Part shown: in pieces, positions 32,056 to 56,493 of the stretch
How the letters are laid out: the number at the start of each line of letters is the position of its first letter
How positions within the stretch are numbered: position 1 is the stretch's first letter
NCBI GenBank assembly: GCA_963805975.1
Contig: CAWDVR010000002.1
Coordinates: forward strand, 64,001 to 128,000
DNA length: 64,000 nt
Reading direction: 5' to 3'
Source of the DNA: an uncultured Acidobacteriota bacterium
Lineage (GTDB): Bacteria; Acidobacteriota; Thermoanaerobaculia; Multivoradales; SZUA-115
Made by a program: the position numbers and the translations under genes
Notes under the pieces: model-generated
Databases searched by the model: none
Seen by the model: only the letters and a program-made list of their open reading frames with translations
What the model was told of the DNA's origin: nothing

Positions 32056-35000
32056 TCAGGGCCTTTGTGGGGCCTCGACGATGCGGATGGCTTGGCGGCT
32101 GGTGCTGAGCGCAACGGCTGTCAGGTCGGGCGCTTTTCCGCGCTGTAGAAAAGCCTCGTCGAGCAGCGGCGCAAGCGGCCCCAAGCGCTCGCGCTCGCCA
32201 CGGCTGAGGCCGGAGAGCCGCGGCAAGCGCAGGGGCGAGAAGTCGATGGGCTCGGCGCTGGCGATCAGCAACAGCACATCGACCCCCAGAGGCTTGGTTA
32301 CCTGAAATACCTCGTTCAAGGTCCGGGGCCTGGGCTTGGCACTTGCCCTTTCACGCGCTCCGGGAGGCGGCCAGATCACGGCGATGTCTCCATCGGACAT
32401 CAAGTCGAGCACCGAGATGAAGGCGGCATCGTCACTGCCGGTGATCCGCAGCTCGAAGAGGCTGTCGAGCGGCAGCTCGATCTCCTCTCCGAGCGTGCGC
32501 ACCTGTTCTCGCGGATGGGCGACTACGCGACAGCTCTGGCGCGTCCCCGTGGTCGGGTCGGGGCAGTCCAGGAAGTCGACCGGCACCACCTCGAGCTCGG
32601 TGTGCAGGCGCGCATCGTACAAATCGAGCCGGCGCAGGTAGCGGTTCAGCGCCAGCCGGGGCGCGAGATCGGTCGCGGTGTCGCGGACCAGGAAAGCGCG
32701 TGCCGTGACGAGCTCGTCGTAGGCCACCGGCGAGGCCAGCTCGGCAATCGCTTCGTAAGGGGAGGCCTCCGAGATGCGAGCACCGGTGAGTGGATCGCCG
32801 ACCGCGGGCCCGGAGGCTCCTGCCGGATGGATCTCCAGCTCGGAGCCGACGGTGAGACCGGCCAGCAATCCAGGCCGCAGGCGGACCCATCGGTCCTTGC
32901 CGGCGATCGGGATCACCGTAAAGTACGGCAGCTGCCACGTCATCGGGGCTTCCAGGAAAAGCGGGCTGTCGAGCACGCCCTCGGCCTGAAGAACATTCGA
33001 CACCTTGCCGCGCAAGGCGGCTCGGGCTCGCTCGGCCAGCTCGCGATAGGTGAGCGGCGGTGGATCCTGAGCCAGCTCCCGGCTGATCGCCCACGTCAGA
33101 CTGCCCACGCGTTCCAGGTCGTGGCGCTTCACTTCGAGCGCCCGCTCCCCGGAACGCGACGCGGAGAGCACGATCAAGGGCGCCAAGCCCTCTTCATGGA
33201 TTTTCATCCCGCGCACGCCGTCGACGAGCCCCGAGATCATGTCTTCGCCCCGCGCCCCGGTGCCGGAGTGGCAGGCGTCCAGCAGCACCACGACTTGCCC
33301 TGTCGGCCCCAATCGGCGGCGCAACCGCTCGAGCAGCTCGCCCAAAGCGTCGTCGCGCAGATAGCGCTCGATACCTTCGCCGAGCGCACCCGGAGCTTCG
33401 TCGACAGGGGCGTCATACGGCACCAGCGCTTCGTCATAGCCGTCGAGCTCGTCACCGGGCTCGTCGTCGGGCAGCAGGCGGCCGTGGCTCGCCACGAAGA
33501 GCAGCGCCAGGTCCCCAGGTCGACTGGGCTCGATCAGCGCTTGCTCGACGGCGCTCACGATCCCGGCGCGAGTGGCATCGCGATTCAGCAACTCGCGGAT
33601 CGCCGACGGCGAGAATCCTCGGCTCTCGAGCGTGGTTCGCATCAGCACCACGTCTTGCTCCGAGGCGATCCTGCGCCAACCACTGCCGGCGGGGTATTCA
33701 CCGATCCCGACCAGGAGAGCGCGCCTGGCGGCAGGGCCGCGAGCGGCCCGCGGCGCGGGCAGCACCGCCGCTTCCGGCTCGGGAGGAGGCGGGGCCATCT
33801 CACCCGTCAGCGTGAAGGCTCCCCAGAAATAAGGAGCTCGAAAACGCTCGTCCGCGAGCAGCGCCAGCTGCGCCTGGCGCAGGGCCTCGCTGGCCGGCTG
33901 GCCCGCACGCAGCAAGCGATAGAACGAGACGGTGAGCTCCGCCGCCGCGAGGTCGTCGATCTTCCACAAGGTGGAAACCACGGCCGGACTGCCGGAGTAG
34001 AGGATGGCGCGCGCCAGGCTGGCGACCTCGTCACCGGCGCTGCGCTTGCCGAGCGCGGTCTCACAGGCCGAGAGCATCACGAGATTGACGCCGGAAAGAT
34101 CCACGCCGCTCAGCAGCTCGTGCACCTCCAGATTGCCGTCCTGGGCCTCGTCCGGTGCCAGGGCGATGCGTGTGAACGAAGAGCTGTTGGCGTTGTAGAG
34201 CCCGTGGGCCGCCAAGTGAACGAGATCGATCTTGCCGCCGAGGCCGTGCAGCTTGCTCTCGGTGGCTTCGCCGTCCAGCCAAGGCCGAGTACCCCAGATC
34301 TCGGCCACTTGACGCGCTTCGGCAGCGGCACCCGGCAAGAGAGGCAGCCGAGGGTCGGTGGCGGCCGGTGCTCCCAGGACGAGCGCACGGCCCTCGAAGG
34401 AGGTTTCCTTGGCGCGCAGAAATGGCAAGGCACTCGCCGACGGCAGGTACGACAACGTGTAGTCCTCGAGCAGGTACCTGCCCGTGTCCGGGTCCCGCAG
34501 GGTGGCGAAGGGAAGGTAATGGAGCACGCCGTGCGGAACGAGCACCACCCTCGTGCTCCCGAGCTTGGTCTTGAGAGGTGAGAACAGCCGCCGGTAGAGC
34601 CTCGTCGCACGCTCGAGGTCATCCGGACAACCGGAGATCACCTCGGCACCCCGCGTGGCGCTGCCTGCGTCGCGACCGAGCGCCGCCGAAAAGCACAGCA
34701 CGTCTTCGATCCCTGCCGTGCCCAGGTCGAGCGCAACGTGCTCGAGGCTCGTCCGGTTGGCCACCCAGACATGGGCCCTTGTCCCCGAGATGAAATAGCT
34801 CACTAGGCTTTCCGCCGGTGCCAGGCTCTGCTGCACGGCAGCGAGGTCGAGCGGCTCGATGGTGACGAGCGCGGCGTACTCGGGGCTGGTGACTTTGATG
34901 CGTGTCATCAAACCCTCGAGATCCGCCTTGGCATGGCCGATGTCCCGTTCGAGGTGGAGGCGCTCGGCGCCGGCGGCCGACGGCAGCTCGCGCTCCCAGC

Positions 35001-36978: not shown

Positions 36979-37002
36979 GGATGACCTCTCGGTTCGCCGA
37001 GC

Positions 37003-39771: not shown

Positions 39772-39832
39772 CCTCGTGCCTTCCACGCTTCCGAAGACAC
39801 GCCAAGAGCACTTTCAGGGGGTGCGGCCGGAC

Positions 39833-40642
39833 CTATGCGGGCGGAATCTCGATCCGGTCGGCGAAGACCTGCGCTTCCGTTCCGGACGAAGAGATACCGA
39901 CGACACGGATCTCGTAGCGCCCCGGGGCCAGCGCCGCCCTGGAAAGGGCCACTGAAAAAGTGGCATCGGGCAGCAGCTTCAGCCCTGACCGGCTCCACAG
40001 AGGCTGCTCTCCCATGCGATCCATCGAGCGCACTTCCAGACGGTAGTCGTCGTAGGGTTGTGGATCCAGAGTCGCCAGCTGGAGAAAGAGCACATCGCCG
40101 CTCCCTTCCAGTCGTCGGGGCGCGACCTCCACGGGTGAGGAGCCACGCGGTGCCAGCGGTGCCAATCGGTGGAATTCGACATTGATCTGAACGCCCGAGG
40201 TCGCGGCCAGGCGCTGCTCAGCCCCCAGTCGCCCGGCCCGCTCCTGATACCCCCAGAGCGCGAGCCCCAGGATCGCCAACAGCGAGGCTGCCAGCAGGGC
40301 GAGAGCGGGAAGACGGCGATCTCGACGGTCCGGCCCACGCTGCCGCGCACCGGACCGGATGCGGCCCTGGATCTTCTTCCAATCCTGCGCCAGCTCCTCG
40401 GGCGATAGATGACCGGGCTCCCCTCGAGTCGCGGCGGGAGGAAAGGCGGCGAATTGGCTCGCCAGCAGCGCAGCTTCCGGATCGAGGGCAATCGCCTCTT
40501 CGACCCGCTCGCGCTCTTCTGCGGCGAGCTCGTCATTGAGGTATGCGAAAATATCTTCGGCACTAACCTTCATTTCGGGTCGCCGGCGCAGCTCGGCGGC
40601 CAAACCCTCGAGAGCGACCGAAAGTTCTTTGTTTCGCTTCAC
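39833..40642 (-). CDS. Putative anti-sigma factor (ASD-like N-terminus, one TM, extracytoplasmic Ig-like domain)
   Basis: Directly downstream of the ECF sigma gene; AYLNDELAAEERERVEE resembles the zf-HC2/ASD helix pair; TM LALLAASLLAILGLALW; LAPGRYEIRV. Confidence 0.75.
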   Translation of the reverse strand: MKRNKELSVALEGLAAELRRRPEMKVSAEDIFAYLNDELAAEERERVEEAIALDPEAALLASQFAAFPPAATRGEPGHLSPEELAQDWKKIQGRIRSGARQRGPDRRDRRLPALALLAASLLAILGLALWGYQERAGRLGAEQRLAATSGVQINVEFHRLAPLAPRGSSPVEVAPRRLEGSGDVLFLQLATLDPQPYDDYRLEVRSMDRMGEQPLWSRSGLKLLPDATFSVALSRAALAPGRYEIRVVGISSSGTEAQVFADRIEIPPA

Positions 40643-40665
40643 GGCGTCTCCTCCCCTTCCTCGGA

Positions 40666-41223
40666 CTAGTCGAGGCGCAGCCGCGTGCCGCTCAGCATCC
40701 GTTTCAGGGTCTTCAGAGCATCATGGCGCAGACTCTTGACCGTCTCGACCGAGATCGCAAGCAGCTCCGCGATCTCTTTGTAGCTGTGATCCTGATTCTG
40801 CAGCAGGATCACGTGTCGCTGACGGGGCGAGAGCTCCTTGATCGCAGTCCGCAGCAGCCCGAGTGCCTCTTCGATCTCCAGCTTCTTGTCGGCCGGCATA
40901 TCCTGACTTAGCAGCTGCCAAGAAATCAGCATTTCGCCCGGCAAGCTCGATTCCGCATCGATTGCAACCCTCTGACCACTACGCATCTTGGCTCTCCGGT
41001 AGCGAATCTCGTTGGACCAGACGCCGTGGATGATCGTAAAGAGCCATGTCTTCTCGGAAGATTCGTCGCGGAACGTGCCACGGTATTGATAGACACGTAC
41101 AAAAACATCTTGTGCTAGATCGCGAGCCTCGTCCTTGGAGCAGCCGCGGGCGACAAAGAAAGCCACGACGCGCGGATACCACGCCGCATAGAAGCGTTCG
41201 AACCACTGGTCATCTCTGTTCAC
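40666..41223 (-). CDS. ECF RNA polymerase sigma factor
   Basis: Region 2 (ARDLAQDVFVRVY, TWLFTI) and region 4 (LSPRQR, SYKEIAELLAISVETVKS); 185 aa. Confidence 0.93.
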   Translation of the reverse strand: MNRDDQWFERFYAAWYPRVVAFFVARGCSKDEARDLAQDVFVRVYQYRGTFRDESSEKTWLFTIIHGVWSNEIRYRRAKMRSGQRVAIDAESSLPGEMLISWQLLSQDMPADKKLEIEEALGLLRTAIKELSPRQRHVILLQNQDHSYKEIAELLAISVETVKSLRHDALKTLKRMLSGTRLRLD

Positions 41224-41410
41224 GGGCCCTCCGCTGAATCGATCCTAGCAGTATTCCGCCAGCCCTCTTCGTGCTGGGTTGGCAACCTTCGAGCACGCAC
41301 ACTTTCTGCTAGCCTCTGAGAAAGCAATTTCGACCATCCAAGATGCAGCCTGCCCCCTCGCCAGCGACGCTCTGGAACTGACCGGCATTGCCGTGGAGGT
41401 ATCTAGATCC

Positions 41411-44400
41411 ATGAGATTCGGCCTTTGGGTCCCGACCAGTCTGATCGTCCTCCTCGGCTCTGCTTGCATCGGTCGCTCTCCCGCCGACGAGAGGGCGTCG
41501 ATGGAGCCGCTCGCCCGTCCTTTTCCGGTACGTCTCTCCGTCCCGACCACGTATCTCCCTTGCGCGCTCGACGTGGCTCCGGGCCCTCTCCCGCGCAATC
41601 CGCGATGTCCGGAGCCGTCCACTGCAGCCCCCCCCTCTTCCGTTCACGATGTGTCTATAGACACGGCTGAGCAAGCTCGCGGGGTAGCGGGTAGCCATCG
41701 CAGCGCCATCGCGGCGCTGCTCAAGGCCAGTGAGTCTTACGACTTCGAGGAGGCGTTCTCGTTGTTCGAGGCCGAGCTTCAGAATTCGAGCTCCGCGGCG
41801 CTGCTGAACGATTTCGCAGCGGCCCATTGGGTGCGGTCCCAACAGCTCGATCAACCGGTGGACCTCGTGCGGAGCTTGGAATTGGTCCGGCAAGCGGTCG
41901 AGGCCGACGAGAGCTTCGCCCCGGCAATGTTCAACGCCGGCCTGCTCTGTCGATCCCTGGGGCTTTCTTGGTGCGAGCGCGAGGCCTGGGAGCGCTACTT
42001 GCGATTGGACTCGGACCCTTCCTCGCCGTGGGCGCAAGAGGCTCGCCAGCACCAAGCCCGGCTCGCATGGCCGTCGCTCCAATCCCTGGCACAAGCAAAG
42101 ATGGGACTCGAAGAGGCTGTCACCAAGCGTGACTCGGTGCGCCTGCGCCACTTGGTGGCTTCACACCCGGGAACCGCCGAAGCGTGGGCGCTGGACGTTC
42201 TTCTCGGCAAATGGGCTGCGGCCGTGGAGCAAAAGCAGGCGGCTCACGCCGCCGCGCTGCTCGCCGATGCGCGGCTCATCGCCGATGAGACCGGGGCCAC
42301 TCGTCGCAATCGCCCGCTGTCGGCTGCGGTGGCGGCCATCGAGCGTGCCGGGCAAACAGACTCCGAGGCGGCTCGCCTCGCATCCCTCGTCCGCGGCCAC
42401 GCGTCCTACGCTCGAGGCATACAGCGATTCACCACCGATTACGAGCCTGCCGCTCGACACTTCACCGCCGCGCGACAGGCGCTCGCGCAGGGCGGCAGTC
42501 CGTTCGCCCTCGTCGCAGAGCTCCAACGCATCACGTGCCTGATGCGCAACAACGAGTACGAACGCGGGCTCGATGCACTTCGTCGCCTCGAGCGTGAAGA
42601 GGGTATTTTGCCGCCCGCGCTCGGCGGGCGAGTGTATTGGCTGCGCAGTTTTGCCGAAACCCATCAGCGACGGCTTCTCGAAGCCATCGATTCGTACCGC
42701 CAGGCGGTCGCTCTCTACGAACAGGCGGAAGACGCCTCGAGCCTTTTCTGGGCAGAGTGGCGGCTCGCCGAGCTGCTCGACTTGGTCGGGCAGACCGAGG
42801 TGGCATGGCAGCACCGCTATCGTGAGCTGGCACGCCTCGGGAGCATAGAAGACCTGCGAGGTCGCACGTGGGCTCTCAGCGAAGCTTCGGCGGCCGTTCT
42901 CGGCCTGAATGCCAAGCACTCCGCAAAGCTCCTGCACACGGAGGCCGTTCAGGTCGGCCGACTCGCGGGAGACGATTTGATCCTCGCCGAAGCGCTCCGG
43001 AAGAGCGCCGACGTCGCGCTAGCCAGCGGCCAGCCCGAGGAAGCTCGTGAGGCCGTGCAGGAAGCCTCCCGCATTGCCAGCGACTTCGGTCAAGGCAATG
43101 CCTCTGACGCCGTCGAGCTCAAGATTCTCCAAATCGAGGGACGCTTGGCGCTGCCTTCGGAGCCAGCTCGAGCGCTGGCCAAGTTCGAAGCGGCGAGCGC
43201 GCTTGCCCGTACTCTCGGCCAAACGATTTATCTCCCCGAGCTGCACGCTGAGCGTGCCGAGGCGCTGGGACTGCTGCACCGCTTCGCCGAGCGCGAGGAG
43301 GCGCTCGATGCCGCCGTACTGCTGGTCGAAGAGGAATGGGAGGCGGCGCTCAAAGAGCGTTCTCCGGGCGATTACGAGGCGCTGTGGCCAACTTATTTCG
43401 GCCCGGGCCGAAAATCTTTCGATCGCCTCATCGAGGCGTTGGTTCTCGAAGGAAAGTTGGACCGCGCCCTCACGGTTGCCGAGCGTGCCCGGGCCCGCGA
43501 GGTCCTCGACCTGCTACGCGATCCGGCGGCATTGCAGAGTGGTCTGAGGAGTTTTTTCCGGGGCGAAACCCGTCCGTTGACCGTAGCGGAGCTGATCGCC
43601 CGGCTTCCCCCCAAAACGGCCGTGGTCGAGTTCGCGCTGACGGAGGATCGGCTGTTCACCTGGGTGCTGGCGCGGGACGGAGTCCGATTTTTCCACGAGC
43701 AGCCGGCCGGGCCGGTGCTGGCGCAGGAGATCGAGAGCGCGATCGACGCTATCCGCTCGAGCACGCAGCAGTTTGAGATCGAAAGGCGTCTGGCCGCGCC
43801 CTTCGATCGCCTGATCAGGCCGCTCGACGGTTACCTCCGAGAGGCGGAACACCTGGTCTTCATCCCGGACGGCGCTCTCCATGCCTTGCCGTTCGCAGCG
43901 CTCTACGACCGTTCGACACGCCGTTTCCTGATCGAGAGCCATCCTGTGGCCATCACCCCCAGCGCGACGCTCTATGCCTACGCCCTGGAGCGCAATCGCG
44001 AGCTCGCCGCCATCGAGCGCCGGGCCCCGAAGAGTGAGCCTGGGCTCTTGGCCGTCTGCGACCCCGCCTTTCCGGCCGAGAAGTTCCCTGCCCTGAGCCG
44101 CCTCTCGGGCGCGGCCGCCGAGTGCACTGCCGTCGCCGAGCAATATCCGAGCTCGACCCTTCTGGCCGGCGAGACGGCGACGAAACGCCAGTTCCTGACG
44201 GAGCTGAGCCGGCACTCGGTGCTTCACTTCGCCGGCCATGCCATCGGGCACCCGTCGGCAGCCTACATCGTGCTGGCGGCGGACTCGTCGGACGAGCTCG
44301 GCATCCTGTACGCCAGCGATCTTCTTTCCCGGGAGACCGGTCGGACCCGCATCGCCGTTCTTTCGGCTTGCAGCTCGGTTGCCGAGCAGGCGGCGCGCGG

Positions 44401-44674
44401 GCAGGGGGTGGCCGCGCTCGTTCGGCCGCTGATGGGCGCCGGAATTCCGGCGGTGGTCGGGACACTGTGGAAGGTGGACGATCAAGCGACGCTCCATTGG
44501 GCCCGGTCGTTCCATCACCACCTGCTCGCCGGTGACGATGCCGCGCGCGCCATGCAGGCGGCACAGCTCGATCTATTGCACGCCAAGCAGCTCAAGCTTC
44601 AGCTACCTCAGTCCTGGGCAGCGTTCCAGCTGGTGGGATATGCCTCTTTTTTGGAGGAGAACAAGGAGGAGTAG
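41411..44674 (+). CDS. Exported (possible lipoprotein) TPR-CHAT protease
   Basis: SD GGAGG then MRFGLWVPTSLIVLLGSAC (lipobox-like); IPDGALHALPF, HFAGHA, LSACSS, WAAFQLVG. Confidence 0.88.
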   Translation: MRFGLWVPTSLIVLLGSACIGRSPADERASMEPLARPFPVRLSVPTTYLPCALDVAPGPLPRNPRCPEPSTAAPPSSVHDVSIDTAEQARGVAGSHRSAIAALLKASESYDFEEAFSLFEAELQNSSSAALLNDFAAAHWVRSQQLDQPVDLVRSLELVRQAVEADESFAPAMFNAGLLCRSLGLSWCEREAWERYLRLDSDPSSPWAQEARQHQARLAWPSLQSLAQAKMGLEEAVTKRDSVRLRHLVASHPGTAEAWALDVLLGKWAAAVEQKQAAHAAALLADARLIADETGATRRNRPLSAAVAAIERAGQTDSEAARLASLVRGHASYARGIQRFTTDYEPAARHFTAARQALAQGGSPFALVAELQRITCLMRNNEYERGLDALRRLEREEGILPPALGGRVYWLRSFAETHQRRLLEAIDSYRQAVALYEQAEDASSLFWAEWRLAELLDLVGQTEVAWQHRYRELARLGSIEDLRGRTWALSEASAAVLGLNAKHSAKLLHTEAVQVGRLAGDDLILAEALRKSADVALASGQPEEAREAVQEASRIASDFGQGNASDAVELKILQIEGRLALPSEPARALAKFEAASALARTLGQTIYLPELHAERAEALGLLHRFAEREEALDAAVLLVEEEWEAALKERSPGDYEALWPTYFGPGRKSFDRLIEALVLEGKLDRALTVAERARAREVLDLLRDPAALQSGLRSFFRGETRPLTVAELIARLPPKTAVVEFALTEDRLFTWVLARDGVRFFHEQPAGPVLAQEIESAIDAIRSSTQQFEIERRLAAPFDRLIRPLDGYLREAEHLVFIPDGALHALPFAALYDRSTRRFLIESHPVAITPSATLYAYALERNRELAAIERRAPKSEPGLLAVCDPAFPAEKFPALSRLSGAAAECTAVAEQYPSSTLLAGETATKRQFLTELSRHSVLHFAGHAIGHPSAAYIVLAADSSDELGILYASDLLSRETGRTRIAVLSACSSVAEQAARGQGVAALVRPLMGAGIPAVVGTLWKVDDQATLHWARSFHHHLLAGDDAARAMQAAQLDLLHAKQLKLQLPQSWAAFQLVGYASFLEENKEE

Positions 44675-44677
44675 GAA

Positions 44678-45763
44678 ATGGACTTCATTCTGCGGATCTA
44701 CTTCATCGGCCTGATCGCCTTCGTCCCCGATTCGGACGGACAACGCATGACGGCACTGCTGGTCGATGCACGCCACAGCTACATCGCCTCGGACGGCGAG
44801 CAGGTGCCGGAGCATTACCCCATGCTCTTCGCGCGGGCGCAGAACTGCTCCGGCAACTGCCACGAGCAAGACACTTTTCTGGCTGACACCGTGTTTCCTT
44901 CGACCCTGTCGGCAGGCGAGCGCCTGACCAACCTGCAAGATGCCGTGATCGGGGGCGGTGGCTGGAAGCTCGACCTCTCGCAGCTGCGGATCGTCCTTCC
45001 GGGCGCTTCGCAGATGTCTTTGACGCCTTTCCAGCTGGTCGGTGATGGCGATACGGTAGCGGGTCCCGGCCGGCCTCTGCCCAGCAGCTCGACTCCACGA
45101 GACGATTTCGACTACGTGGCCGACCTTCGTGAGATCGTGGGCGAAAGCCTGGTCGTCGATTCGACGCTGCTCGACGCGCCCGAGAAAGGGCGTACCGTCG
45201 CCCTGATGAAGCTGGCGGCGGGTGACGTGACAGCACAGCGTCTGTCGGGCTTCAAGGACGAGATCGTCGAGTTCCGCTTCGCCACCGCCGAGGAGCTCAA
45301 GAATGGTCTCGATCTCTCGATGCCACTCGCAGCCTTGGCGGATCGCGTGATGGTCGAGATCAAGATCTCGGGCGACCGGGTCCGGCTCGAAGACCGCAAC
45401 AGTACGACCTCCACCGTCCGCACGATGGAGCTCACCCCTCAAGCCGGCAGTAATGTGATCGAGGTCGTCATCGTCAATCTGCCGAAGCACGGCTTCCAGT
45501 TCGAGGGCTCCCATCTCGGCCACCCTACGACTCCCGGGCAGATCTTTATCGATCATCACTTCGAGCTGTTCTACGAGCTGGCAGAGTGCGTTCCACCGCG
45601 CAACCGCCGACCGGTTCCGGGCTATCTCAACGACTTACGCACTGAACGACCGAACGACCCGTCCCAAGACAGCTCGACATTCCTGGGCGCGTTGGGCCTA
45701 GCGCCGAGCCGAGGCGTGTGGAGCCAACCCACGTGCGTGGTGGTCCAGCTTCCGCGCGGCTGA
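44678..45763 (+). CDS. Hypothetical beta-rich protein coupled to the CHAT gene
   Basis: Starts 3 nt after the CHAT stop with SD GGAGGAG; FIGLIAFVP, HHFELFYEL, C-terminal SRG..PTC. Confidence 0.8.
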   Translation: MDFILRIYFIGLIAFVPDSDGQRMTALLVDARHSYIASDGEQVPEHYPMLFARAQNCSGNCHEQDTFLADTVFPSTLSAGERLTNLQDAVIGGGGWKLDLSQLRIVLPGASQMSLTPFQLVGDGDTVAGPGRPLPSSSTPRDDFDYVADLREIVGESLVVDSTLLDAPEKGRTVALMKLAAGDVTAQRLSGFKDEIVEFRFATAEELKNGLDLSMPLAALADRVMVEIKISGDRVRLEDRNSTTSTVRTMELTPQAGSNVIEVVIVNLPKHGFQFEGSHLGHPTTPGQIFIDHHFELFYELAECVPPRNRRPVPGYLNDLRTERPNDPSQDSSTFLGALGLAPSRGVWSQPTCVVVQLPRG

Positions 45764-46302: not shown

Positions 46303-46326
46303 GGGTCGGACACGTCCCCCAGTAAG

Positions 46327-46362: not shown

Positions 46363-46413
46363 TCCTCGCTTCCATCAACAGCTCGCCCGCCTGTTGCGAC
46401 ACCGGGAGGCTTC

Positions 46414-47811
46414 ATGGTTCGGACAGCTCTGCTATTGCTTCTCGCCTTTTTCACCAGCCCACTGACCGCCGCTCCGAGAGTGGCGTTACAGATTTTCGAT
46501 GTTGGCGCTTTGAGCACCTGGACGACGCTCACGGCAGAAGAGACGACCCCCTACCTCGCCGAGGGTTTGCGCTCGGATTTCCGCTTTGGTGCCCGATCGA
46601 CAGCGGGTAGCTATGCTTTCGTGACTCAAATCGACAACACCCTCGATCGAGATGCGCTCGGCCCCGAGGACATCCAGGGCCTCTTTTCCGTCGACACCTA
46701 TCAGGATCTCGAGCCCAGCGGCTTCACTAGTGAGGTCGTCACCGTCGGAGAGAAACACAACTTGTCGGCCCTGGTGGTATCTTTTCGCACTACCAAGCTT
46801 GGTTACGTGGTCAGCGCCCCCCCCGGCCCGGTGCTGGTAAAAACGGTATTTCTCCCTCTCGTACTGCGAGATGCGAGCACTCGGCAGTACCTCAACTGGA
46901 TCTACGTCGCCAACTTTCGCGGCAGCACGGCACAGCAGGGCGACTTGCAGGCTTTCGACCGGCTCTGGCAGCAGGCAAAACTCGGCGATCCAGGTCTCTC
47001 GCAGGTCGAGCTGGATCGATTCAATGCGCTCCGGCCCGAAATCGCGACAGTTGAGCCGGTCAGCACCTTGCCGCTCGCCCCCCTTCCCGAGCCGCAAGGC
47101 GCCGCGCCGGGAGCACCGGCTAGCGAGCCTCTGGCGCAGGCTCTCGTTGGCGCGCTTACTCCAGGTTCCAAGGTCTTAGCGCCTGGGCCGCTGCGACGCT
47201 TCACCAGCGAATACCCAGACACGGCCCTGGCAAAAGTCTTCCAGTCGCTCGCGCAGGCTCAACTCTCGGTTCTCCAAGAGGCCATCTGGCAGCAAGCCTG
47301 GCAGGCTTCTCCGAGCGCTCAGAAGGCCTTGCTTGCGGCACTGTTTCTGGTGCAGAGCATCTCCGTGGAGGACGAACGGTTAGTGGCGCGCGTGTCCCAG
47401 GACGCTGCGATGGCAGGGATCTCGGCGGGAAAGCTCGATTGCGAGCAGCTCGGTTTCCTGCTGGATCTTCTCTTGCCTCAGCGCAACCATCGCTTTCTGG
47501 CCCGGCCGGCAGTGCGGCAATTCTTCGCCTTGGCTCCCGACCGCGGCTGCGGTGATCTGGTTCAGCTCATGCACGCGAGAGAGATCGATCTTGTCCAGCT
47601 GCACGAGGTCGCCCGCGAGAAGCACCCGGGAACCTGGGAGCTCAAATCGACGTTCCCCTCCGGGCGCCTACCGACCCTGGCGCAACAGGAGGGCAACCTG
47701 ATGCTCGTTCAGTTCCCGGTCGGTCGAAAAGACCGGGCGATCGACGTCCGGGGCGTGACCAGCTTGCTCGATCTGATCGCTGCGCTCGCTCGCCAAGGTG
47801 CAAGCTCTTAG
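46414..47811 (+). CDS. Secreted hypothetical protein
   Basis: SD GGGAGG, signal peptide MVRTALLLLLAFFTSPLTA; 465-aa ORF with no competing gene. Confidence 0.7.
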   Translation: MVRTALLLLLAFFTSPLTAAPRVALQIFDVGALSTWTTLTAEETTPYLAEGLRSDFRFGARSTAGSYAFVTQIDNTLDRDALGPEDIQGLFSVDTYQDLEPSGFTSEVVTVGEKHNLSALVVSFRTTKLGYVVSAPPGPVLVKTVFLPLVLRDASTRQYLNWIYVANFRGSTAQQGDLQAFDRLWQQAKLGDPGLSQVELDRFNALRPEIATVEPVSTLPLAPLPEPQGAAPGAPASEPLAQALVGALTPGSKVLAPGPLRRFTSEYPDTALAKVFQSLAQAQLSVLQEAIWQQAWQASPSAQKALLAALFLVQSISVEDERLVARVSQDAAMAGISAGKLDCEQLGFLLDLLLPQRNHRFLARPAVRQFFALAPDRGCGDLVQLMHAREIDLVQLHEVAREKHPGTWELKSTFPSGRLPTLAQQEGNLMLVQFPVGRKDRAIDVRGVTSLLDLIAALARQGASS

Positions 47812-47835
47812 AGCCTTGCGCGCCTCTCTGCGAAG

Positions 47836-50800
47836 TCACTCTGGAGCATCAGGCTCCGGAGGCAGGGCGCGTCCGATCAGGATCTGGCCCAGCAGGGCCG
47901 GGTAGCTGCGCATCGGCTTTTGGAAACCTCCTGAAGCCGACTCGACCTGGGCCGACACGTGACGATAGAGCTCGTCGAGGTCGATCAGGCCGTCTCCCGA
48001 GCTGTCCGCGGCGCCGCGCAATCCCTCGAGCAGGTAGTAGGTGAAGAGGCCGTGCTCGAGACGGTTGTCTTCGACCGCCACCTGGTTGGGCTCGCTGGCC
48101 GCGAGGATCGCCCGCCCACTGCCGGCGCTCGCCAGGCGGCTCAAGAACTCCGCGCTCAGACTGTTGCGCACAGAGCCGTTACCGCCGAAAACGGTGCGCC
48201 CGCCCGCGGTCGAGGCACCGCTGAAGCAGCTGTCGATCATCACCACCACGCGCTCGGCGCGATAACGCCGCAGGATCAGCTCGAGCTCGCTCATGGGCAG
48301 TGCCGAGCTGTAGAGATCTGCCGATACCGCGTCGACGGGCAGGAAGTATTTGGTGAGGCCGTCGGGCTCCGCAATGCCGATGGCTTGTTCCGGCATGCCG
48401 TGCCCGGCTAGGAAGAGGATCACGGTGTCCCCGGCGCTCGTGGCACGCTGTGGCAGCACGGTACCGAGAAGGCTCCGTACCTCCCGCAGCGTCGCCTGTT
48501 CGTTCGTTCGCACGAAGACCTGCTCGGCCGGCAGATCCAACGCAGTGCGGAAATAAGCGGCCACCGCCTCGGCGTCTTTGTGGGCATAGCGCAATGGCCG
48601 AATCGCGGTGTCCTGGTAGGAGCTCACACCGATAGCCACCAGCCAAACACGCCGACTCTCATCGTCTCGATAGAGCGACAGCACCCGAACGCCGCGCTGG
48701 CCATCAGCGGTGATGGCGGTCACTTCGAAGCGGTTCTCACCGCGGGCGAGCTGCACCGGCAACTCGTAAGTGCTCGCATTCAAGCTCCCGTCACGCACGG
48801 TTCTCGCGGGTGACGAATCCAGGGCGACCGGACGGTCGTTCAGGCGCAGGCGGACGTCTTCGAGCTCCGTGGCATGCTGAATCTCGAAGCGAAGGACGAT
48901 GGCTTCCTGCGCCACCTTCTCGCCGAACTGCTGCCGGAGAAAGGAGATCGTCGGTGCCAAGACGGCTCGCGCCGGCGTGGCGGGCTGTGGCACCGGCTCT
49001 GGTGGAGCGGCACTCATCACCACGGGCGCCTGCTCGACCACCCTCACCGCGGCATTTGTCCGTAGTGGTGCGAAATCCCGCTGCGTCACCGAGACGACGA
49101 GCGGAGCCTCGCCCGGCCCAGCACCGGTACGCACGGAGATCGGCACACGGATCCGCCGCGCGCCTCGTGATGGGACGATGTCCAGCAGAACCTCGCGCTT
49201 GGTTCTCGGCAGCCCCAAGTCGTCGAGCAGGTCCACTCCGGGCATCGAGCTTTCGAGCGTGACCTGTACTTGCTCGGCGGCGAGGTCCCCGCTGTTGCGC
49301 AGCTCCAAGGAGAGCTCCCGGGCCGTGCCGCGCTCGAGCTCCACGACCGAGGGAACGCTCAGCTCGAGCTGGGGCTGGAGGCTCCAGAACTCGACGGGCA
49401 GATCCTGGACGAGATCCGGAAAGCCGTCTTGGCGAATGCGCGCCGTCAACGGGAGGCGAGCTGGCTGCGCTCCTGCTCCGAAGCCCCGCGGCAGGCTCAG
49501 CACCACCCATTGGCTGCGGCTCGTCGCACCCGCCGGTAGCGTGCCGAAGTCGACTTGAGCCGGCTTCGGCTGCAGGAGGTCGGTGCTCGAGGCCAGCTCC
49601 AGTCGCACGTTCTCCGAGGACAACGACCCGTCGTTGCTGACCGCGAGGATCAACTCGACGGTCTCACCATTGTTCGCAATACCATCGGAGTTCCCTCTCG
49701 AGCCGGGTGAAGCTCCATCCGCGAGTTGAGTCGTAACCCGCAGCCGTGGCGCTCGGGCGACCGTGCTCCACCCCTGCTGACGTGTGGTCGACGCGGCCAG
49801 CTCGCCTCGGCCATCAACTGCCGAGAAAGTGAGCTGCAGCTGTGGGGCCAGCCCATTGCGCGAGACTGCGAGCAGAAAGCGGCTCTCGGCGATGTCGTGG
49901 CTCGCCAGGCGCTGGATGATGCCCGGCGTGGACAGCACGTGGACGCTTGCCAGCGGCTCCAGTAGCCCAACGCGAACGCCAAGGGCATCGCCCGCTCCCG
50001 AGTTGCGCACTCGAACGACAACCTCGACCGTCTCCCCGGCTCCGGGGAGGCCGTCACCATCCCCGACAGCGGGCGGCGTGGCGTCGTTGATGGCGACGTC
50101 AAAAATCTCGAGCGCCGGTGACGCGAAGCTCACCGCCGCCACCTCGAGAAGAATGGAGCGGGCCGCATAGCCACGGTTCTCGAGCACCTCGGCGCGCAGA
50201 GCGATCGGTCGGGCAGGTAGGCCCAAAGTGCTGTGGAAGCTGATCTCGTACACCAGGTCGGCACCGACACCGAGGTCGCCGAGCCCCGTGACCGCCGGTA
50301 CGATCAGCGACGGCTCGTCGGACGACAACCGGAGGCTAAGACCGAAAGCTTTGCCCGGGCCTTCGTTGCGCACCTTCACGCGGAGCCGAGCCGCTTCGCC
50401 GGCGTCCAGGCGACCGTTGGGCAGGAGACTGTCGTTGTCATCCAGCTCGATCGAGGCGAGAAGGGTCGCGGGCGCCGTCGACAGGCGCTCGAAAGAATCG
50501 AGCACACGGCGCAGGGACGGTGATCCCCGTAAGCTTTGGATGCAGCTCGAAATCGCCAGACGGAATGCATCCTCCGTGTAGGCTTCGACGAGAAGCGCCG
50601 GACTCCAGAAGTTAAACCCCTTTCGGTCCTCACCCGAGCAGTCCACGGTCACAATGGGTGCGTGCGCTCCATCGAACAGCTCCAGCTGCAATTGCGCTTG
50701 AACACCGGGGCCTGCTCCTCCCGGAGCACCAAGGACTTTGGTTGAGAAGCTGTAGACCGCCTCGAGCAGATGCGGCTCCTGCGGGGGGATTGGCGTGCTT

Positions 50801-51252
50801 TTGCGCTTTCTGGAGGTGGGCGCTATACCCGCCGGGAAGAGCTGCTCGAAAGTGCTCGTCAGCGCTTCTCCGAGGGCTTGGTCCAAGTAAATCGGAATAG
50901 AGATCCCCTGGACCAGATAGTCGCCCGAGACGCTCTCTATATCTTTCTGCAATGGGCTCAGCATGTTGTCGAGTCGACGCTTGAAGTCCCCCTCACGGAT
51001 GTAGATATCTCCGTAGTAGGCCGTGGCATCCGTGTTGCCGGGCTTGGAGGTCACACGGACCGCGATCGGGAAGCGGGATTCGAGGGGACTGATCGGCTCC
51101 GGTACCAGCTCGTCCACGTCGGGCATGGCAGACATCACTTTCCACACGACTTCGGCAGCTAGCGCGCTCGGCGAAGGTTGGAAAATCAAGAAGCCAACCA
51201 TGACGGCCCCTCGACTCACACTCCAGAAGATTCGCACGATCAGGTTCCCCAT
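47836..51252 (-). CDS. Secreted multi-Ig (CARDB-like repeats) protein with a C-terminal caspase (C14) domain
   Basis: Four repeats ending (V/L)xN(E/S/D)G, three with Dx(n)GE loops; LVAIGVSSY, FLAGHG, IDSCFSG, HGLFTYYLLEGL.G.AD; start uncertain. Confidence 0.88.
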   Translation of the reverse strand: MGNLIVRIFWSVSRGAVMVGFLIFQPSPSALAAEVVWKVMSAMPDVDELVPEPISPLESRFPIAVRVTSKPGNTDATAYYGDIYIREGDFKRRLDNMLSPLQKDIESVSGDYLVQGISIPIYLDQALGEALTSTFEQLFPAGIAPTSRKRKSTPIPPQEPHLLEAVYSFSTKVLGAPGGAGPGVQAQLQLELFDGAHAPIVTVDCSGEDRKGFNFWSPALLVEAYTEDAFRLAISSCIQSLRGSPSLRRVLDSFERLSTAPATLLASIELDDNDSLLPNGRLDAGEAARLRVKVRNEGPGKAFGLSLRLSSDEPSLIVPAVTGLGDLGVGADLVYEISFHSTLGLPARPIALRAEVLENRGYAARSILLEVAAVSFASPALEIFDVAINDATPPAVGDGDGLPGAGETVEVVVRVRNSGAGDALGVRVGLLEPLASVHVLSTPGIIQRLASHDIAESRFLLAVSRNGLAPQLQLTFSAVDGRGELAASTTRQQGWSTVARAPRLRVTTQLADGASPGSRGNSDGIANNGETVELILAVSNDGSLSSENVRLELASSTDLLQPKPAQVDFGTLPAGATSRSQWVVLSLPRGFGAGAQPARLPLTARIRQDGFPDLVQDLPVEFWSLQPQLELSVPSVVELERGTARELSLELRNSGDLAAEQVQVTLESSMPGVDLLDDLGLPRTKREVLLDIVPSRGARRIRVPISVRTGAGPGEAPLVVSVTQRDFAPLRTNAAVRVVEQAPVVMSAAPPEPVPQPATPARAVLAPTISFLRQQFGEKVAQEAIVLRFEIQHATELEDVRLRLNDRPVALDSSPARTVRDGSLNASTYELPVQLARGENRFEVTAITADGQRGVRVLSLYRDDESRRVWLVAIGVSSYQDTAIRPLRYAHKDAEAVAAYFRTALDLPAEQVFVRTNEQATLREVRSLLGTVLPQRATSAGDTVILFLAGHGMPEQAIGIAEPDGLTKYFLPVDAVSADLYSSALPMSELELILRRYRAERVVVMIDSCFSGASTAGGRTVFGGNGSVRNSLSAEFLSRLASAGSGRAILAASEPNQVAVEDNRLEHGLFTYYLLEGLRGAADSSGDGLIDLDELYRHVSAQVESASGGFQKPMRSYPALLGQILIGRALPPEPDAPE

Positions 51253-53798
51253 TGCGCTTTTGGATCGCCGGTCAGCGTGAAGCCTGCCCAATAGTAAGGC
51301 GCCGAGGTTGACTCTTCGCGCAGCAGCTCGATCTGTGCGCCCCGCAATGCTTCGGCCACGGAGGAGCCGGCCTTCCAGCGGCGGTAGAAACGATTCATGA
51401 GCTTCTCGGTGGCGGCATCATCGGCGTTCCAGAGGCTCGAGACGACACCCGGCGAGCCGGCATACAGAAAGCCGCGCATCAGGCTCTCGATCTCGTCTCC
51501 TCGGCTCGGCTCTCCGGTCGCTGTCTGGCAGGCTGCCAGCACGACCAGGTTGACTCCGGAGAGATCGAGCCGCGAGTAGATCTCGTGCACTTCCAGGTTG
51601 CCGTCATACCCCGCACCGGTCGCCAACACGATGCGGCTGAAGCGCGGGCTCGCCGGCATGTATTCGCCGTGCGCCGCGAAATGCACGATGTCGACCGTGC
51701 CATCGAGCTTCGCCAGCGCGGCCTCGCTGGCGGCGGGGCCGAGGAGGACCTCGCCGGCGAGCAGCTTGCCCAGCCCCACGGCCTCGCGGCCCATACCAAC
51801 GGCGGCTTTATACTGCCGCTCCTCGCGCTCGGGTGCTCCCCACACCCGGGCCTTGCCCGTGAACGGCGATTCTTTCGCGCGCAGGAAGCGCAGGGCACTG
51901 GCGCTGGGAACGTAGGTGAGCGTGAAGTCCTCGATGAGATAGCGGCCGGTGGCGGGCTCTCTGAGCGCCGCGAAGGGAACGCTGTGCAGAGGCCCGTGAG
52001 GGATCAGGATCAGCTTGGAGTGGTGGACAAACGGTAGCAGCGGCTCGAAGAGCTGCTGATAGAGCTGGACGAGGCTCGACTGCTCGGCCATGCAGTGCTC
52101 CGGAACAGAGCCGCGCACCGCCATCGAAGCGGTTTCGACACGACAGGTGAGCGGCACGATCGGCCCGCTCGGCAGCGGCAGCACGAGCGGCTCGAACGAG
52201 TCCCGCTCCACCACCCAAGCATGGATACTTTGATCGGTGACGAAGAAACTGATGAGCGTGACGTCGGAGTCGAGCTGGGCTTGGAGCTGGTCGACATCCA
52301 CCGGCCGAGCGGTGACCAGAGAGCCGAGCTCTGCGTCCTCCAGAGCCGTGCGAGCGGTCAGCCCCTGGAATTGCCGCCGTTGGTCCAGCAGCTCCTTTTC
52401 CTTGGCCTCGCGCCCCGCCCCGGTGGCGCGGGCCAGCTCTTTCTCGAGATCGACCAGGCGCTGCCGGAAGACCGTCGATTCCGCGGTGCTTCTGAGCAGG
52501 CGAGCGGGATCACGGTCGGCCCCCACGGCCCGCAGGAGCGCGCGGGCACGGGCTTGTTCTGCGACCAGGAAGGCCTCGCGAGGCCGCTGCTCGAGCACCA
52601 GCATCTCGAGCAGGCTCTGGTACGCAACGCGGCCGGGGCCGGCATGGTAGGTGGCGAGCAGGTCGAGCGTGCTCATCGTGCCGGTGGCCTCCTCGAGACA
52701 GGCCACGGCGGCTGCGGCCGCGTCGATCGCTTCAGGGAAGCGGTGTTGATACCAGAGCGCCCGGCTGAGGCTCGCGAGGGAGGGCGCCGCGCTCTCAGCG
52801 CTGCCGGCTCGCAGAGAGCGCCTCACATCCAGGCCCCAGAGGCGAATCGCGTCCTCGAACCGCCCCTGTTGAAAAGCCCGCAAGGCCGCCAGCAGCTGGC
52901 CTCGGGGTGAGCCCGGATCGGCCTGCCGTCGGTGGGTGGCCAGAGACTCACCACGATAGGCACAGCGTCTTTGTACGGTGGCGTGGGCCGCAGTGATCGC
53001 CACTCGACCACCGGCGGCGGAAGGACTCTTGCCGGCAGCATGGATTTCGTCGAGCCGGGGATCGAGGCGGATCCCCTGGCGATGGAATGCGGCCACGCTG
53101 GCTGCCAGGCCTGCCGTGCTTCGCATGAGCAAGAGGTTCGCGGCGAAGCCCAACTCTTTGAGCCTCGCCGCAAGCTCACTCTGGGCTGAGTCCGCGGCGG
53201 TTTGGTGCCCGACCAAATGGTAGTAGAGCGTCAGGATCGCCAGCGACTGAAGCTCTAATTGGCGAGCGAGGACTCGTTCGAGCGGGTGGCGAGGCTGGAC
53301 CTGGCGGCTGAGCGCCTTCGTTTTCTCGAGGTCGTGAATGACCTGTTCGTAGCGCCCGGCTTCGGCATCGAGCACGGCCTGCTGGAAGAAACCTCCCGCC
53401 TGCCAGAGCACGCCGTCCGGACGGTCCGCCTCTCGCAGGAGGCTCTGATTCACGCTCTCGGCAGCCGACAGATAGCCCGCCATCTGTAGCAGAAAGACCC
53501 GCTGCAGGAGAACCGTGAGGTAGACTCTCCGGTCACCCGCCAGCCTGGCATAGCTCTGTGCCCGTTCATTGGCTGTCAGCGCGGCGCCGGTTCGGCCCTG
53601 CAATCTGCGGGTTTCCGCGCCGAGCAGAGAGTACGTGGCGAGGCCCAGGCCCAGCTGGCGCATCACCGACGGCGAAGCTCGAAACGTCGCGCGCCACAGG
53701 GTTTCCCACGCCGCCCAGGTCTGTAAGGAGGTCGCGGTCAGGAGCACCACGCCGAGTGCGAGGTGCCGCAAGGCTCTATTCGAGAGGAGTGTGGTCAT
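51240..53798 (-). CDS. Exported TPR-like-CHAT protease
   Basis: Signal/TM segment, IPHGPLHSVPF, HFAAHG, LAACQT, PYYWAGF. Confidence 0.9.
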   Translation of the reverse strand: MTTLLSNRALRHLALGVVLLTATSLQTWAAWETLWRATFRASPSVMRQLGLGLATYSLLGAETRRLQGRTGAALTANERAQSYARLAGDRRVYLTVLLQRVFLLQMAGYLSAAESVNQSLLREADRPDGVLWQAGGFFQQAVLDAEAGRYEQVIHDLEKTKALSRQVQPRHPLERVLARQLELQSLAILTLYYHLVGHQTAADSAQSELAARLKELGFAANLLLMRSTAGLAASVAAFHRQGIRLDPRLDEIHAAGKSPSAAGGRVAITAAHATVQRRCAYRGESLATHRRQADPGSPRGQLLAALRAFQQGRFEDAIRLWGLDVRRSLRAGSAESAAPSLASLSRALWYQHRFPEAIDAAAAAVACLEEATGTMSTLDLLATYHAGPGRVAYQSLLEMLVLEQRPREAFLVAEQARARALLRAVGADRDPARLLRSTAESTVFRQRLVDLEKELARATGAGREAKEKELLDQRRQFQGLTARTALEDAELGSLVTARPVDVDQLQAQLDSDVTLISFFVTDQSIHAWVVERDSFEPLVLPLPSGPIVPLTCRVETASMAVRGSVPEHCMAEQSSLVQLYQQLFEPLLPFVHHSKLILIPHGPLHSVPFAALREPATGRYLIEDFTLTYVPSASALRFLRAKESPFTGKARVWGAPEREERQYKAAVGMGREAVGLGKLLAGEVLLGPAASEAALAKLDGTVDIVHFAAHGEYMPASPRFSRIVLATGAGYDGNLEVHEIYSRLDLSGVNLVVLAACQTATGEPSRGDEIESLMRGFLYAGSPGVVSSLWNADDAATEKLMNRFYRRWKAGSSVAEALRGAQIELLREESTSAPYYWAGFTLTGDPKAQWGT

Positions 53799-56493: not shown

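What the first reader, a model, noticed from the sequence alone, without database searches (positions are those of the whole stretch)
34627..54750. Four CHAT paralogues share a Cys-x(n)-Arg-Gly-x(n)-Cys loop: a disulfide-tethered activation site?
Seen at the equivalent position just before the LY..L..P / PHG.LH segment: CFSAALGRDAGSATRGAEVISGC (34627-34695), CLAIRGRGSEASGPC (37903-37947), CRVETASMAVRGSVPEHC (52092-52145), CFSDAVRHSVRGSEPLAGC (54694-54750). The intervening residues diverge, but both Cys and RG(S/A) persist; the divergent CHAT at 41411 lacks the loop. Known: many clan CD proteases cut after Arg/Lys, and disulfide-bridged nicking loops activate secreted zymogens and AB toxins. 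Inference: cleavage at R|G switches on each protease while a periplasmic disulfide holds the chains together, allowing a chain reaction and redox control.
Basis: partly seen in the sequence, partly recalled or inferred. Interest (0 to 1): 0.85.

Follow-up and report, generated by a model that had tools for sequence, protein, structure and literature searches.

The report
Disulfide-stapled arginine loop in exported proteases
Four caspase-like proteases encoded here share a floppy Arg-Gly loop between two cysteines that relatives keep or lose as a pair; the cysteines likely form a disulfide brace, and the loop is likely a cut site that would switch on these enzymes, which are predicted to be exported, but no cutting has been shown.

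Summary
All four Cys..Arg-Gly..Cys loops lie in minus-strand TPR-CHAT proteases with intact His-Cys dyads, at the tip of a helical hairpin in the pseudo-protease domain. The Arg is present in 120 of 120 aligned close sequences. Among 149 cluster representatives the hairpin never holds exactly one Cys, and the two Cys change together in 7 of 7 independent pairs. The 37003 protein belongs to another clade; its Cys pair sits one helical turn further out, so it arose independently. A disulfide is very likely. It is an optional brace rather than a tether: 15 of 84 Arg-Gly/Ser loops lack it, and a cut would fall inside one folded domain. Arg-Gly motifs recur in the neighbouring anti-sigma factor, exported caspases and a partner protein. 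Best reading: a site cut by an arginine-specific protease of the same cluster, which activates the enzyme. Cleavage and its effect are untested; redox control has no support. This scan found Arg-Gly cut-site codes before on other DNA; my look-ups found no note on the disulfide brace.

The parts
32056..36978 (-). TPR-CHAT protease fused to a C14 caspase domain and a weak DUF4384-like domain; N-terminal signal peptide predicted; CHAT dyad H925/C972
   Evidence: Pfam CHAT 789-1060, Peptidase_C14 1085-1323; DUF4384 E 0.0016, under the cut-off; sequence
34627..34695 (-). Loop 1: C762..T-R776-G..C784
37003..39786 (-). TPR-CHAT protease of a second clade, N-terminal hydrophobic anchor or signal; dyad H769/C835
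37903..37947 (-). Loop 2: C614..R618-G-R620-G..C628; Cys pair one helical turn further out than in loops 1, 3 and 4
51240..53798 (-). TPR-like CHAT protease, signal peptide predicted; dyad H710/C757; tandem paralogue of 53776-56493
52092..52145 (-). Loop 3: C552..V-R562-G..C569
53776..56493 (-). TPR-CHAT protease, N-terminal hydrophobic segment; dyad H741/C790; conserved E703 and D827 are candidate S1-pocket residues
54694..54750 (-). Loop 4: C582..V-R592-G..C600; in the model C582 is in helix A, C600 just before helix B, and R592-G-S has pLDDT under 50
41279..44674 (+). Loop-less CHAT protease (likely start 41411, lipobox-like signal), dyad intact; candidate initiator
   Evidence: family of 84 without insert
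44678..45763 (+). Partner protein with no Pfam family; C-terminal R[GS] motif (45704-45715) ahead of a conserved Cys
   Evidence: 8 of 9 family members with R[GS], one with K-G; no Pfam
39833..40642 (-). Membrane anti-sigma factor (weak zf-HC2, one TM helix) with an R-G in the outer linker (40142-40156)
40666..41223 (-). ECF sigma factor
   Evidence: Pfam Sigma70_r2 and r4_2
29001..31637 (-). C14 caspase with acidic S1 residues, an R-G just after the catalytic Cys (30738-30770) and R-G motifs in the C-terminal domain; candidate cutter
47836..51291 (-). Ig-like-domain protein with a C-terminal C14 caspase domain with acidic S1 residues; candidate cutter

Best explanation
The loop is an Arg-Gly segment inserted at the tip of a predicted helical hairpin in TPR-CHAT proteases that are predicted to be exported; its two cysteines likely form a disulfide that braces the hairpin, and an arginine-specific protease of the same gene cluster would likely cut after the Arg and so switch the enzyme on. 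Shown: the motif, its conservation, the paired gain and loss of the cysteines, the intact catalytic dyads, and similar motifs in neighbouring proteins. Predicted: hairpin position and loop flexibility. Inferred: the disulfide; that the hairpin is the three-helix motif lining the substrate pocket of separase and Csx29; that the uncut loop hinders that pocket; that the cutter is a co-encoded C14 caspase or the loop-less CHAT; and that the same cut code opens the anti-sigma linker and releases the ECF sigma factor. The disulfide would keep the nicked hairpin from fraying and fix the new Gly N-terminus 7-8 residues from its anchor; it would not be what holds the protein together.
For: Arg 120/120, then Gly 111 or Ser 9, in a loop whose other columns diverge; 84 of 101 insert-bearing representatives against at most 61 in shuffles. 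Loop is coil between helices 147-157 and 172-183, with pLDDT under 50 at R-G-S; the fold matches Csx29 (Z 33.7, rmsd 3.5, 374 aligned) and separase (Z 29.0, rmsd 3.4, 347 aligned). Hairpin Cys count is 0 in 76, 2 or more in 73, and 1 in none of 149, while single Cys occur elsewhere in the domain in 26 of 149. Cys1 and Cys2 go the same way in 6.9 of 7 independent pairs, median p 0.016. In the second clade both Cys are shifted by about 4 residues in 4 of 4 (16 and 20 from the anchors, against 12 and 16-17), and one clade for all Cys-pair proteins is rejected (p-AU 7.5e-13). Exported proteins of this genome show an even-Cys excess (57% of 320 against 42% of 875, p 6e-6). Arg to second Cys is 8-9 residues in 105 of 119, first Cys to Arg 5-21. 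R[GS] motifs occur in the anti-sigma outer linker (R-G or R-S in 5 of 5 read, not all in one column), at the partner's C-terminus (8 of 9) and after the caspase catalytic Cys (5 of 7). The co-encoded C14 domains carry Asp on helix 1 and two residues before the catalytic Cys, as the Arg/Lys-specific TbMCA2 and MALT1 do (PMC4357240). Precedent: LcCaspase cuts its partner at conserved R|G sites (bioRxiv 2025.11.14.688446); a type III-B CHAT activates a caspase by cleavage (bioRxiv 2023.06.23.546230).
Against: No cleavage data exist for any member. The characterised bacterial CHATs cut after Leu or Met, not Arg (bioRxiv 2021.06.07.447441; PMC11506125). The conserved W+4 Asp of these CHATs aligns four residues before separase's S1 Asp, and both candidate S1 acids are family-wide, also in loop-less CHATs. 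Known TPR-CHATs are switched on allosterically, not by a cut (PMC9729208). Separase self-cleavage leaves activity unchanged (PMC10317155). Short-hairpin relatives also often carry an Arg at the hairpin turn (29 of 48 and 56 of 83), so part of the Arg signal may be structural or a contact. The fixed Arg-to-helix-B spacing is not seen in the second clade (n=14, Levene p 0.48). No DsbB or VKOR was found in this 96% complete genome.
Confidence: 0.45

Rival explanations
1. Self-inhibiting bait in cis: the loop's Arg sits in the protease's own S1 pocket and blocks it until a ligand on the TPR domain shifts it; the enzyme then cuts its own loop. No second protease is needed.
For: The Arg is fixed relative to helix B (8-9 residues to Cys2 in 105 of 119; Levene p 6e-5 in 60 representatives with Cys and 0.007 in 10 without) while the other side is elastic. 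Precedents: gingipain RgpB prodomain Arg126 in S1 (PMC4357240; RgpB matches the model at Z 19.8, rmsd 3.4, 273 aligned) and AtMC4 Lys225 (bioRxiv 2020.03.09.983940 abstract). Some loop-bearing CHAT genes show no protease neighbour in the 20 kb read (for example L077, L078).
Against: AlphaFold2 leaves the R-G-S unplaced (pLDDT under 50). The asymmetry is absent in the second clade. Arg specificity of these CHATs is not established.
Confidence: 0.2
2. The loop is cut, but the cut turns the enzyme off, or only changes its partners or stability (a timer or feedback brake).
For: Conservation cannot give the direction of the effect. Separase self-cleavage leaves fragments attached and activity unchanged but drops a partner (PMC10317155). 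The hairpin is likely part of the substrate pocket (PMC11506125), so a nick there could impair it.
Against: A brace across the cut suggests selection to keep the nicked domain intact. In clan CD, cuts in blocking loops usually activate.
Confidence: 0.15
3. The Arg-Gly is an uncut docking or substrate-contact motif at the hairpin tip, and the disulfide is ordinary stabilisation of an exported loop.
For: Short-hairpin relatives have a tip Arg too (29 of 48; 56 of 83 in the second clade's outgroup, 46 with Gly at the next position). P2' is mostly Val/Ala and P5' often Leu, which fits a binding epitope as well as a protease site.
Against: Strict Arg (no Lys at that column in 120 rows) with a small next residue, in floppy segments of unrelated proteins of one protease-rich cluster, is the pattern of clan CD cut sites.
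Confidence: 0.15
4. One reading: the disulfide is what tethers two chains after the cut, and its reduction is a redox switch, as in AB toxins.
For: The Cys always bracket an Arg followed by a small residue (72 of 73 representatives with both Cys; the exception has lost its catalytic His).
Against: The loop persists without Cys in 15 of 84 representatives and 15 of 19 second-clade proteins, most with hydrophobic N-termini. Cys pair and Arg-Gly do not co-vary (about 5 of 7 pairs show no change). Strands on both sides of the loop belong to one domain in both models; in Csx29 the CHAT domain has one central 11-stranded sheet.
Confidence: 0.05

Closest known systems
Csx29 / Craspase TPR-CHAT (type III-E CRISPR; PDB 8eey, 7y83)
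   Same: TPR plus CHAT with pseudo-protease and active-protease parts and a His-Cys dyad; best structural match (Z 33.7, rmsd 3.5, 374 aligned); acts on a sigma-factor regulator.
   Different: Cytoplasmic, activated allosterically by RNA-bound Cas7-11, cuts after Met or Leu; the S. brodae protein lacks the LPxxxxE motif and the W+4 Asp in a profile alignment; no CRISPR genes among the ORFs scanned here.
Separase (clan CD, C50; PDB 5u1s, 5fc2, 7nj1)
   Same: Same protease fold (Z 27-29); strict P1 Arg; self-cleavage with fragments staying attached; autoinhibitory loops (PMC10317155).
   Different: Eukaryotic and intracellular; self-cleavage sites lie in an insert outside the protease hairpin and do not change activity; its S1 Asp (C+41) is not at the same position in these CHATs.
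DdvA-DdvS of Myxococcus xanthus (PDB 8rot, 8rw5)
   Same: Periplasmic TPR-CHAT tied to an ECF sigma/anti-sigma switch; proteolysis in a flexible linker is proposed (PMC11506125).
   Different: DdvA is itself the anti-sigma and lacks the three-helix motif of the substrate pocket; here protease and anti-sigma are separate, and the hairpin is present with an Arg-Gly insert. The word 'disulfide' does not occur in that paper's main text.
Lysobacter capsici LcCaspase - alpha/beta-hydrolase module (bioRxiv 2025.11.14.688446)
   Same: A bacterial caspase-like protease activates a co-encoded zymogen by cutting conserved R|G sites.
   Different: The substrate is a cytoplasmic hydrolase effector, cut twice; the cutter is not a CHAT; no disulfide.
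SAVED-CHAT to PCaspase cascade (type III-B CRISPR; bioRxiv 2023.06.23.546230)
   Same: A CHAT and a caspase in one locus with a sigma factor and its inhibitor, activated in a proteolytic chain.
   Different: Cytoplasmic, triggered by cyclic oligoadenylate and filament formation; the CHAT is the initiator, and no cut in the CHAT itself appeared in the passages read.
Gingipain RgpB prodomain loop (PDB 4ief) and plant metacaspase AtMC4 linker
   Same: A clan CD protease with a loop that presents Arg or Lys to the active site and is cut during activation.
   Different: The blocking element is a separate prodomain or inter-domain linker, not a disulfide-braced insert in the protease's own hairpin.

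Membership tests
CHAT / TPR-CHAT proteases (PF12770, clan CD) | CHAT domain over the Pfam cut-off | tested here: met
   184-249 bits in all five window proteins, cut-off 24
CHAT / TPR-CHAT proteases (PF12770, clan CD) | His-Cys catalytic dyad | tested here: met
   Present in all five; invariant in A1
CHAT / TPR-CHAT proteases (PF12770, clan CD) | Separase/Csx29-type fold with pseudo-protease and active domains | tested here: met
   Foldseek E 1e-17 to Csx29; Z 33.7, rmsd 3.5, 374 aligned
CHAT / TPR-CHAT proteases (PF12770, clan CD) | Proteolytic activity | not testable with these tools
   Needs an enzyme assay
Arg-specific clan CD proteases (separase, metacaspases, MALT1) | Acidic S1 pocket in the CHAT domains | tested here: inconclusive
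   Invariant Glu at the helix-1 position of the caspase Asp (LPGxxxE against LRGxxND within the window) and invariant W+4 Asp, but this Asp is four residues before separase's S1 Asp; both are family-wide; Csx29 aligns with an E there in one weak alignment and with a gap in another
Arg-specific clan CD proteases (separase, metacaspases, MALT1) | Acidic S1 residues in the co-encoded C14 caspase domains | tested here: met
   Asp on helix 1 and Asp two residues before the catalytic Cys in all three window C14 domains, the positions described for TbMCA2 and MALT1; by sequence only
Disulfide-bridged nicking loop (AB toxins, two-chain zymogens) | Cys pair brackets the basic residue | tested here: met
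   72 of 73 representatives with both Cys have R[GSA] between them
Disulfide-bridged nicking loop (AB toxins, two-chain zymogens) | The two Cys are within bonding distance | tested here: inconclusive
   Opposite arms of one hairpin in both models and paired evolution, but coordinates were not returned
Disulfide-bridged nicking loop (AB toxins, two-chain zymogens) | The disulfide is required to link two separable domains | tested here: not met
   The site is inside one domain, and the loop occurs without Cys in 15 of 84 and 15 of 19 relatives
Disulfide-bridged nicking loop (AB toxins, two-chain zymogens) | Cleavage in the loop activates | not testable with these tools
   Needs biochemistry
DdvA-type anti-sigma TPR-CHAT | Zinc anti-sigma domain and TM helix fused to the TPR-CHAT | tested here: not met
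   The anti-sigma is a separate 269-aa gene; no such domain was found in the four loop proteins
Craspase (type III-E) Csx29 | Encoded with Cas7-11 and cytoplasmic | tested here: not met
   No Cas family among 42 window ORFs scanned; hydrophobic N-termini

The most novel reading that the evidence does not exclude
These clusters encode an exported, complement-like protease cascade. A loop-less lipoprotein CHAT senses a signal and starts cutting; loop-bearing TPR-CHATs are true zymogens armed by one cut in a disulfide-braced Arg-Gly loop beside the substrate pocket; exported caspases amplify; and the same code opens the anti-sigma factor to release the sigma factor. It would be the first CHAT protease activated by proteolysis rather than by allostery, and the braced loop was invented at least twice.
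Probability: 0.3. Interest if true: 0.8.

Novelty: new variant of a known kind. Interest (0 to 1): 0.52.

Why it matters
CHAT domains are very common (about 121,000 cluster representatives match; 20 loci in this one genome), yet the few studied ones are cytoplasmic or orphan, and how the exported ones are switched on is open; for DdvA the trigger was not found (PMC11506125). This loop gives one residue to mutate, one band shift to look for, and named candidate cutters in the same cluster. The paired Cys and their second origin one helical turn away also show selection to brace exactly this spot. If cleavage activates, CHAT zymogens and extracellular clan CD cascades in bacteria become testable. 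If it does not, the finding is a conserved subfamily signature of modest interest.

Tried and rejected
Complex prediction of two copies of the 53776 CHAT domain: no verdict, score 0.00, no evidence either way. S-S and loop-to-active-site distances: the structure tool returns no coordinates. Signal-peptide co-variation: by a hydrophobicity heuristic (not SignalP), 126 of 135 full-length Cys-pair proteins, 17 of 19 with RG/RS but no Cys and 33 of 42 with neither score as exported (the RG/RS class of that call includes some chance matches in short hairpins), so there is no contrast to test; several low scorers look N-terminally truncated. The idea that the invariant W+4 Asp is separase's S1 Asp was dropped after alignment. 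The first spacing count picked the Arg nearest 8 residues and was redone on 119 unambiguous rows, 48 left out. The second clade test, for one origin of all RG inserts, did not finish. P0283 was left out of the 150 representatives because it does not cover the hairpin. The tree used 70 rows sampled from the larger sets. Chance or a DNA repeat as cause: rejected. Metal binding by the Cys pair: considered; only two Cys, no conserved His in the loop, exported setting. Helix C-cap as the only role of R-G: unlikely in the insert clade, since the distance from helix A varies from 5 to 21 residues. Not in print as far as I could search: searches listed no paper describing such a loop in CHAT proteases; the library lacks most subscription journals, and supplements were not read. 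Three separase structure papers were not held, so the position of the separase helical insert next to the substrate groove rests on recall and on PMC11506125. The protein atlas look-up for the 44678 partner did not complete.
Full report
Observation. The four peptides are on the minus strand at the stated places. They lie in four ORFs with Pfam CHAT domains and align just before the LY..L..P / PHG.LH segment; the + strand CHAT at 41279-44674 has a short segment there. All five keep the His-Cys dyad and begin with hydrophobic stretches that read as signal peptides, anchors or a lipobox (judged by eye and by a hydrophobicity heuristic). The genome has 22 CHAT matches in 20 loci; five loci have the Cys-RG-Cys loop, the fifth in a frame-split gene on contig C3. 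Named close hits are Thermoanaerobaculia / Acidobacteriota, so the host is likely of that group (inference).

Conservation. In the alignment of the 53776 domain with its 119 best hits the Arg is 120/120, followed by Gly (111) or Ser (9); each Cys is 117/120, and the same three rows lack both. Top hits could be biased towards the motif, so I also used the 150 best 50%-identity representatives (one dropped for not covering the hairpin). Of 149, 48 have a short hairpin and no Cys; 101 have an insert; of these 69 have R[GS] and both Cys, 15 have R[GS] and no Cys, 3 have both Cys with R-A, and one has both Cys, no such Arg and no catalytic His. R[GS] is found in 84 of 101 inserts against a shuffled mean of 43.7, maximum 61.

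The cysteines behave as a pair. The hairpin holds 0 Cys in 76, two or more in 73 and exactly one in none of 149, while elsewhere in the same domains a lone Cys occurs in 26. On a tree built without the loop columns (247 rows, FastTree), 6.9 of 7 independent pairs that differ in Cys1 differ the same way in Cys2 (median p 0.016); Cys and Arg-Gly do not co-vary. The 37003 protein belongs to a distant clade. There, 21 of 120 rows form a subgroup; 19 have the hairpin R[GS] insert, and only 4 have a Cys pair. In those 4 both Cys lie about four residues further from the anchors (16 and 20, against 12 and 16-17), one helical turn on each arm, as an antiparallel hairpin would require. A single clade of all Cys-pair proteins is rejected (p-AU 7.5e-13, 70 sampled rows). 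The genome's predicted exported proteins show the even-cysteine excess of disulfide-forming cells (57% of 320 against 42% of 875; my own gene calls and heuristic), and it has two exported DsbA-like proteins. Against this, DsbB and VKOR were not found in it and are sparse in relatives (2 and 6 of 31). I put the disulfide at about 0.9.

Structure. AlphaFold2 models (mean pLDDT 88.7 and 88.1) place the loop between two helices of the pseudo-protease part: helices 147-157 and 172-183 with Cys at 151 and 169 and pLDDT under 50 at R-G-S; helices 130-147 and 160-181 with Cys at 143 and 157 in the second clade. The fold is that of Csx29 and separase. [quoted passage not shown] Strands before and after the loop belong to one domain, and Csx29's CHAT has one 11-stranded sheet (bioRxiv 2022.08.17.504292, passages). 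A cut would therefore not free two chains, which with the many Cys-free loops argues for a brace, not a tether.

Is the Arg a cut site? For: strict Arg, small next residue, floppy loop; Arg-to-Cys2 is 8-9 residues in 105 of 119 unambiguous rows while Cys1-to-Arg spans 5-21. The cluster recurs in relatives: ECF sigma and anti-sigma, a divergent loop-less CHAT with a partner of the 44678 family, exported caspases, the loop-bearing CHAT, VWA proteins, a kinase and a lipoprotein; a few loop-bearing genes stand without these neighbours. R[GS] motifs recur in the anti-sigma outer linker (5 of 5 read), the partner's C-terminus (8 of 9) and behind the caspase catalytic Cys (5 of 7). The three C14 domains of the window have the acidic S1 residues of Arg/Lys-specific enzymes (PMC4357240, passages; PMC5756287, passages). 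A bacterial caspase cuts its partner at conserved R|G sites (bioRxiv 2025.11.14.688446, passages and section 7), another is strictly Arg-specific (bioRxiv 2024.10.24.620036, passages), and a CHAT-to-caspase chain is known (bioRxiv 2023.06.23.546230, passages). The loop-less family (84 rows) has no insert and no conserved R[GS] column anywhere, with dyad and acidic residues intact, which fits a role as initiator. In the second clade the outgroup has a long first active-site loop with a conserved Arg (71 of 99), and the insert-bearing subgroup has lost that loop; this looks like a move of the motif between two loops, but it is one event. Arg-Gly at the hairpin tip without Cys also shows up in a Nostoc and in Pyrinomonad CHATs.

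Against: nothing shows cleavage. Characterised bacterial CHATs cut after Leu or Met (bioRxiv 2021.06.07.447441, passages) and are activated allosterically (PMC9729208, passages). The invariant W+4 Asp aligns to Cys+37 of separase, whereas its S1 Asp is Cys+41 (D2070 in PMC10317155, passages and section 4; C2029 from PDB titles). The two candidate S1 acids are family-wide. Short-hairpin relatives often have a tip Arg too (29 of 48; 56 of 83). The spacing asymmetry holds in the first clade (p 6e-5, n=60; p 0.007, n=10) but not in the second (p 0.48, n=14). Separase self-cleavage does not change activity. Cis-blocking precedents exist (RgpB Arg126; AtMC4 Lys225, abstract only).

Verdict. The feature is real and conserved, the disulfide is very likely, and a regulatory R|G cut is the best reading (about 0.7 for a cut or bait site, 0.45 for activation in trans). 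The proteins are members of the CHAT family; the braced loop is a new variant. Ten literature searches listed no description of it, within a library that lacks most subscription journals; no supplements were read. Earlier notes of this scan proposed Arg-Gly cut codes in at least eight other loci (unchecked AI notes, not support) and described a related cluster; look-ups for the disulfide found nothing. The term 'bait loop' and the lead to PMC10317155 came from note e1-8309172. The names 'pseudo-protease domain' and 'CHAT' come; that the separase helical insert reaches the substrate groove, and the even-cysteine test for disulfide-forming cells, are recalled.

Noticed in passing
window 29001-31637 (-), residues 58-118: The caspase ORF begins with a TM segment and a YidD domain (Pfam E 1.3e-14). 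Five close homologues in related clusters are about 100-140 residues shorter and start with a plain signal peptide. A real fusion or two genes run together.
   Followed up: partly
window 44678-45763 (+): Partner of the loop-less CHAT, directly downstream of it in the clusters where both were read; no Pfam family; conserved Cys pair near the N-terminus and a C-terminal R[GS]-x6-9-Cys. Candidate substrate or securin-like inhibitor. No obvious signal peptide, although its neighbour looks exported.
   Followed up: partly
G000:C3:12746-13559 (+) and G000:C6:55536-56355 (-): Two CHAT genes of the genome are split over two reading frames inside the protease domain; the C3 one carries the fifth Cys-RG-Cys loop. 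Pseudogenes or assembly errors.
   Followed up: partly
G000 whole genome: Clear even-cysteine bias in exported proteins and two DsbA-like proteins, but no DsbB or VKOR found; both oxidants are sparse in 31 related genomes. The re-oxidising partner in this group may be divergent or unknown.
   Followed up: partly
window 26392-27714 (+) and 26000-56000: A tyrosine integrase borders the protease cluster, and G+C drops to 62-68% against about 70% for the genome: likely a genomic island. No tRNA in the window. A 32-bp near-perfect inverted repeat lies at 26175-26288.
   Followed up: no
G000:C2:495276, C2:10170, C3:254038: Three other CHATs of the genome lack the hairpin insert but have Arg-Gly in a long loop before the LP..E motif, as in the outgroup of the 37003 clade.
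   Followed up: partly
window 56490-64000: Glycine-zipper lipoprotein, Ser/Thr kinase, FHA-trypsin, zinc-ribbon-FHA, PP2C and a VWA protein follow the CHAT pair; related clusters add Hsp70-like and tubulin-like genes.
   Followed up: no
L075:7080-8489 (-) and 8 homologues: An exported VWA protein, absent from the window, lies directly beside the loop-bearing CHAT in many related clusters and has an invariant Q-F-F-x-R-G (9 of 9); probably structural, not examined.
   Followed up: no
window 46414-47811 (+): A 465-aa protein with a signal peptide, no Pfam family and no homologue in the 20 regions read.
   Followed up: no
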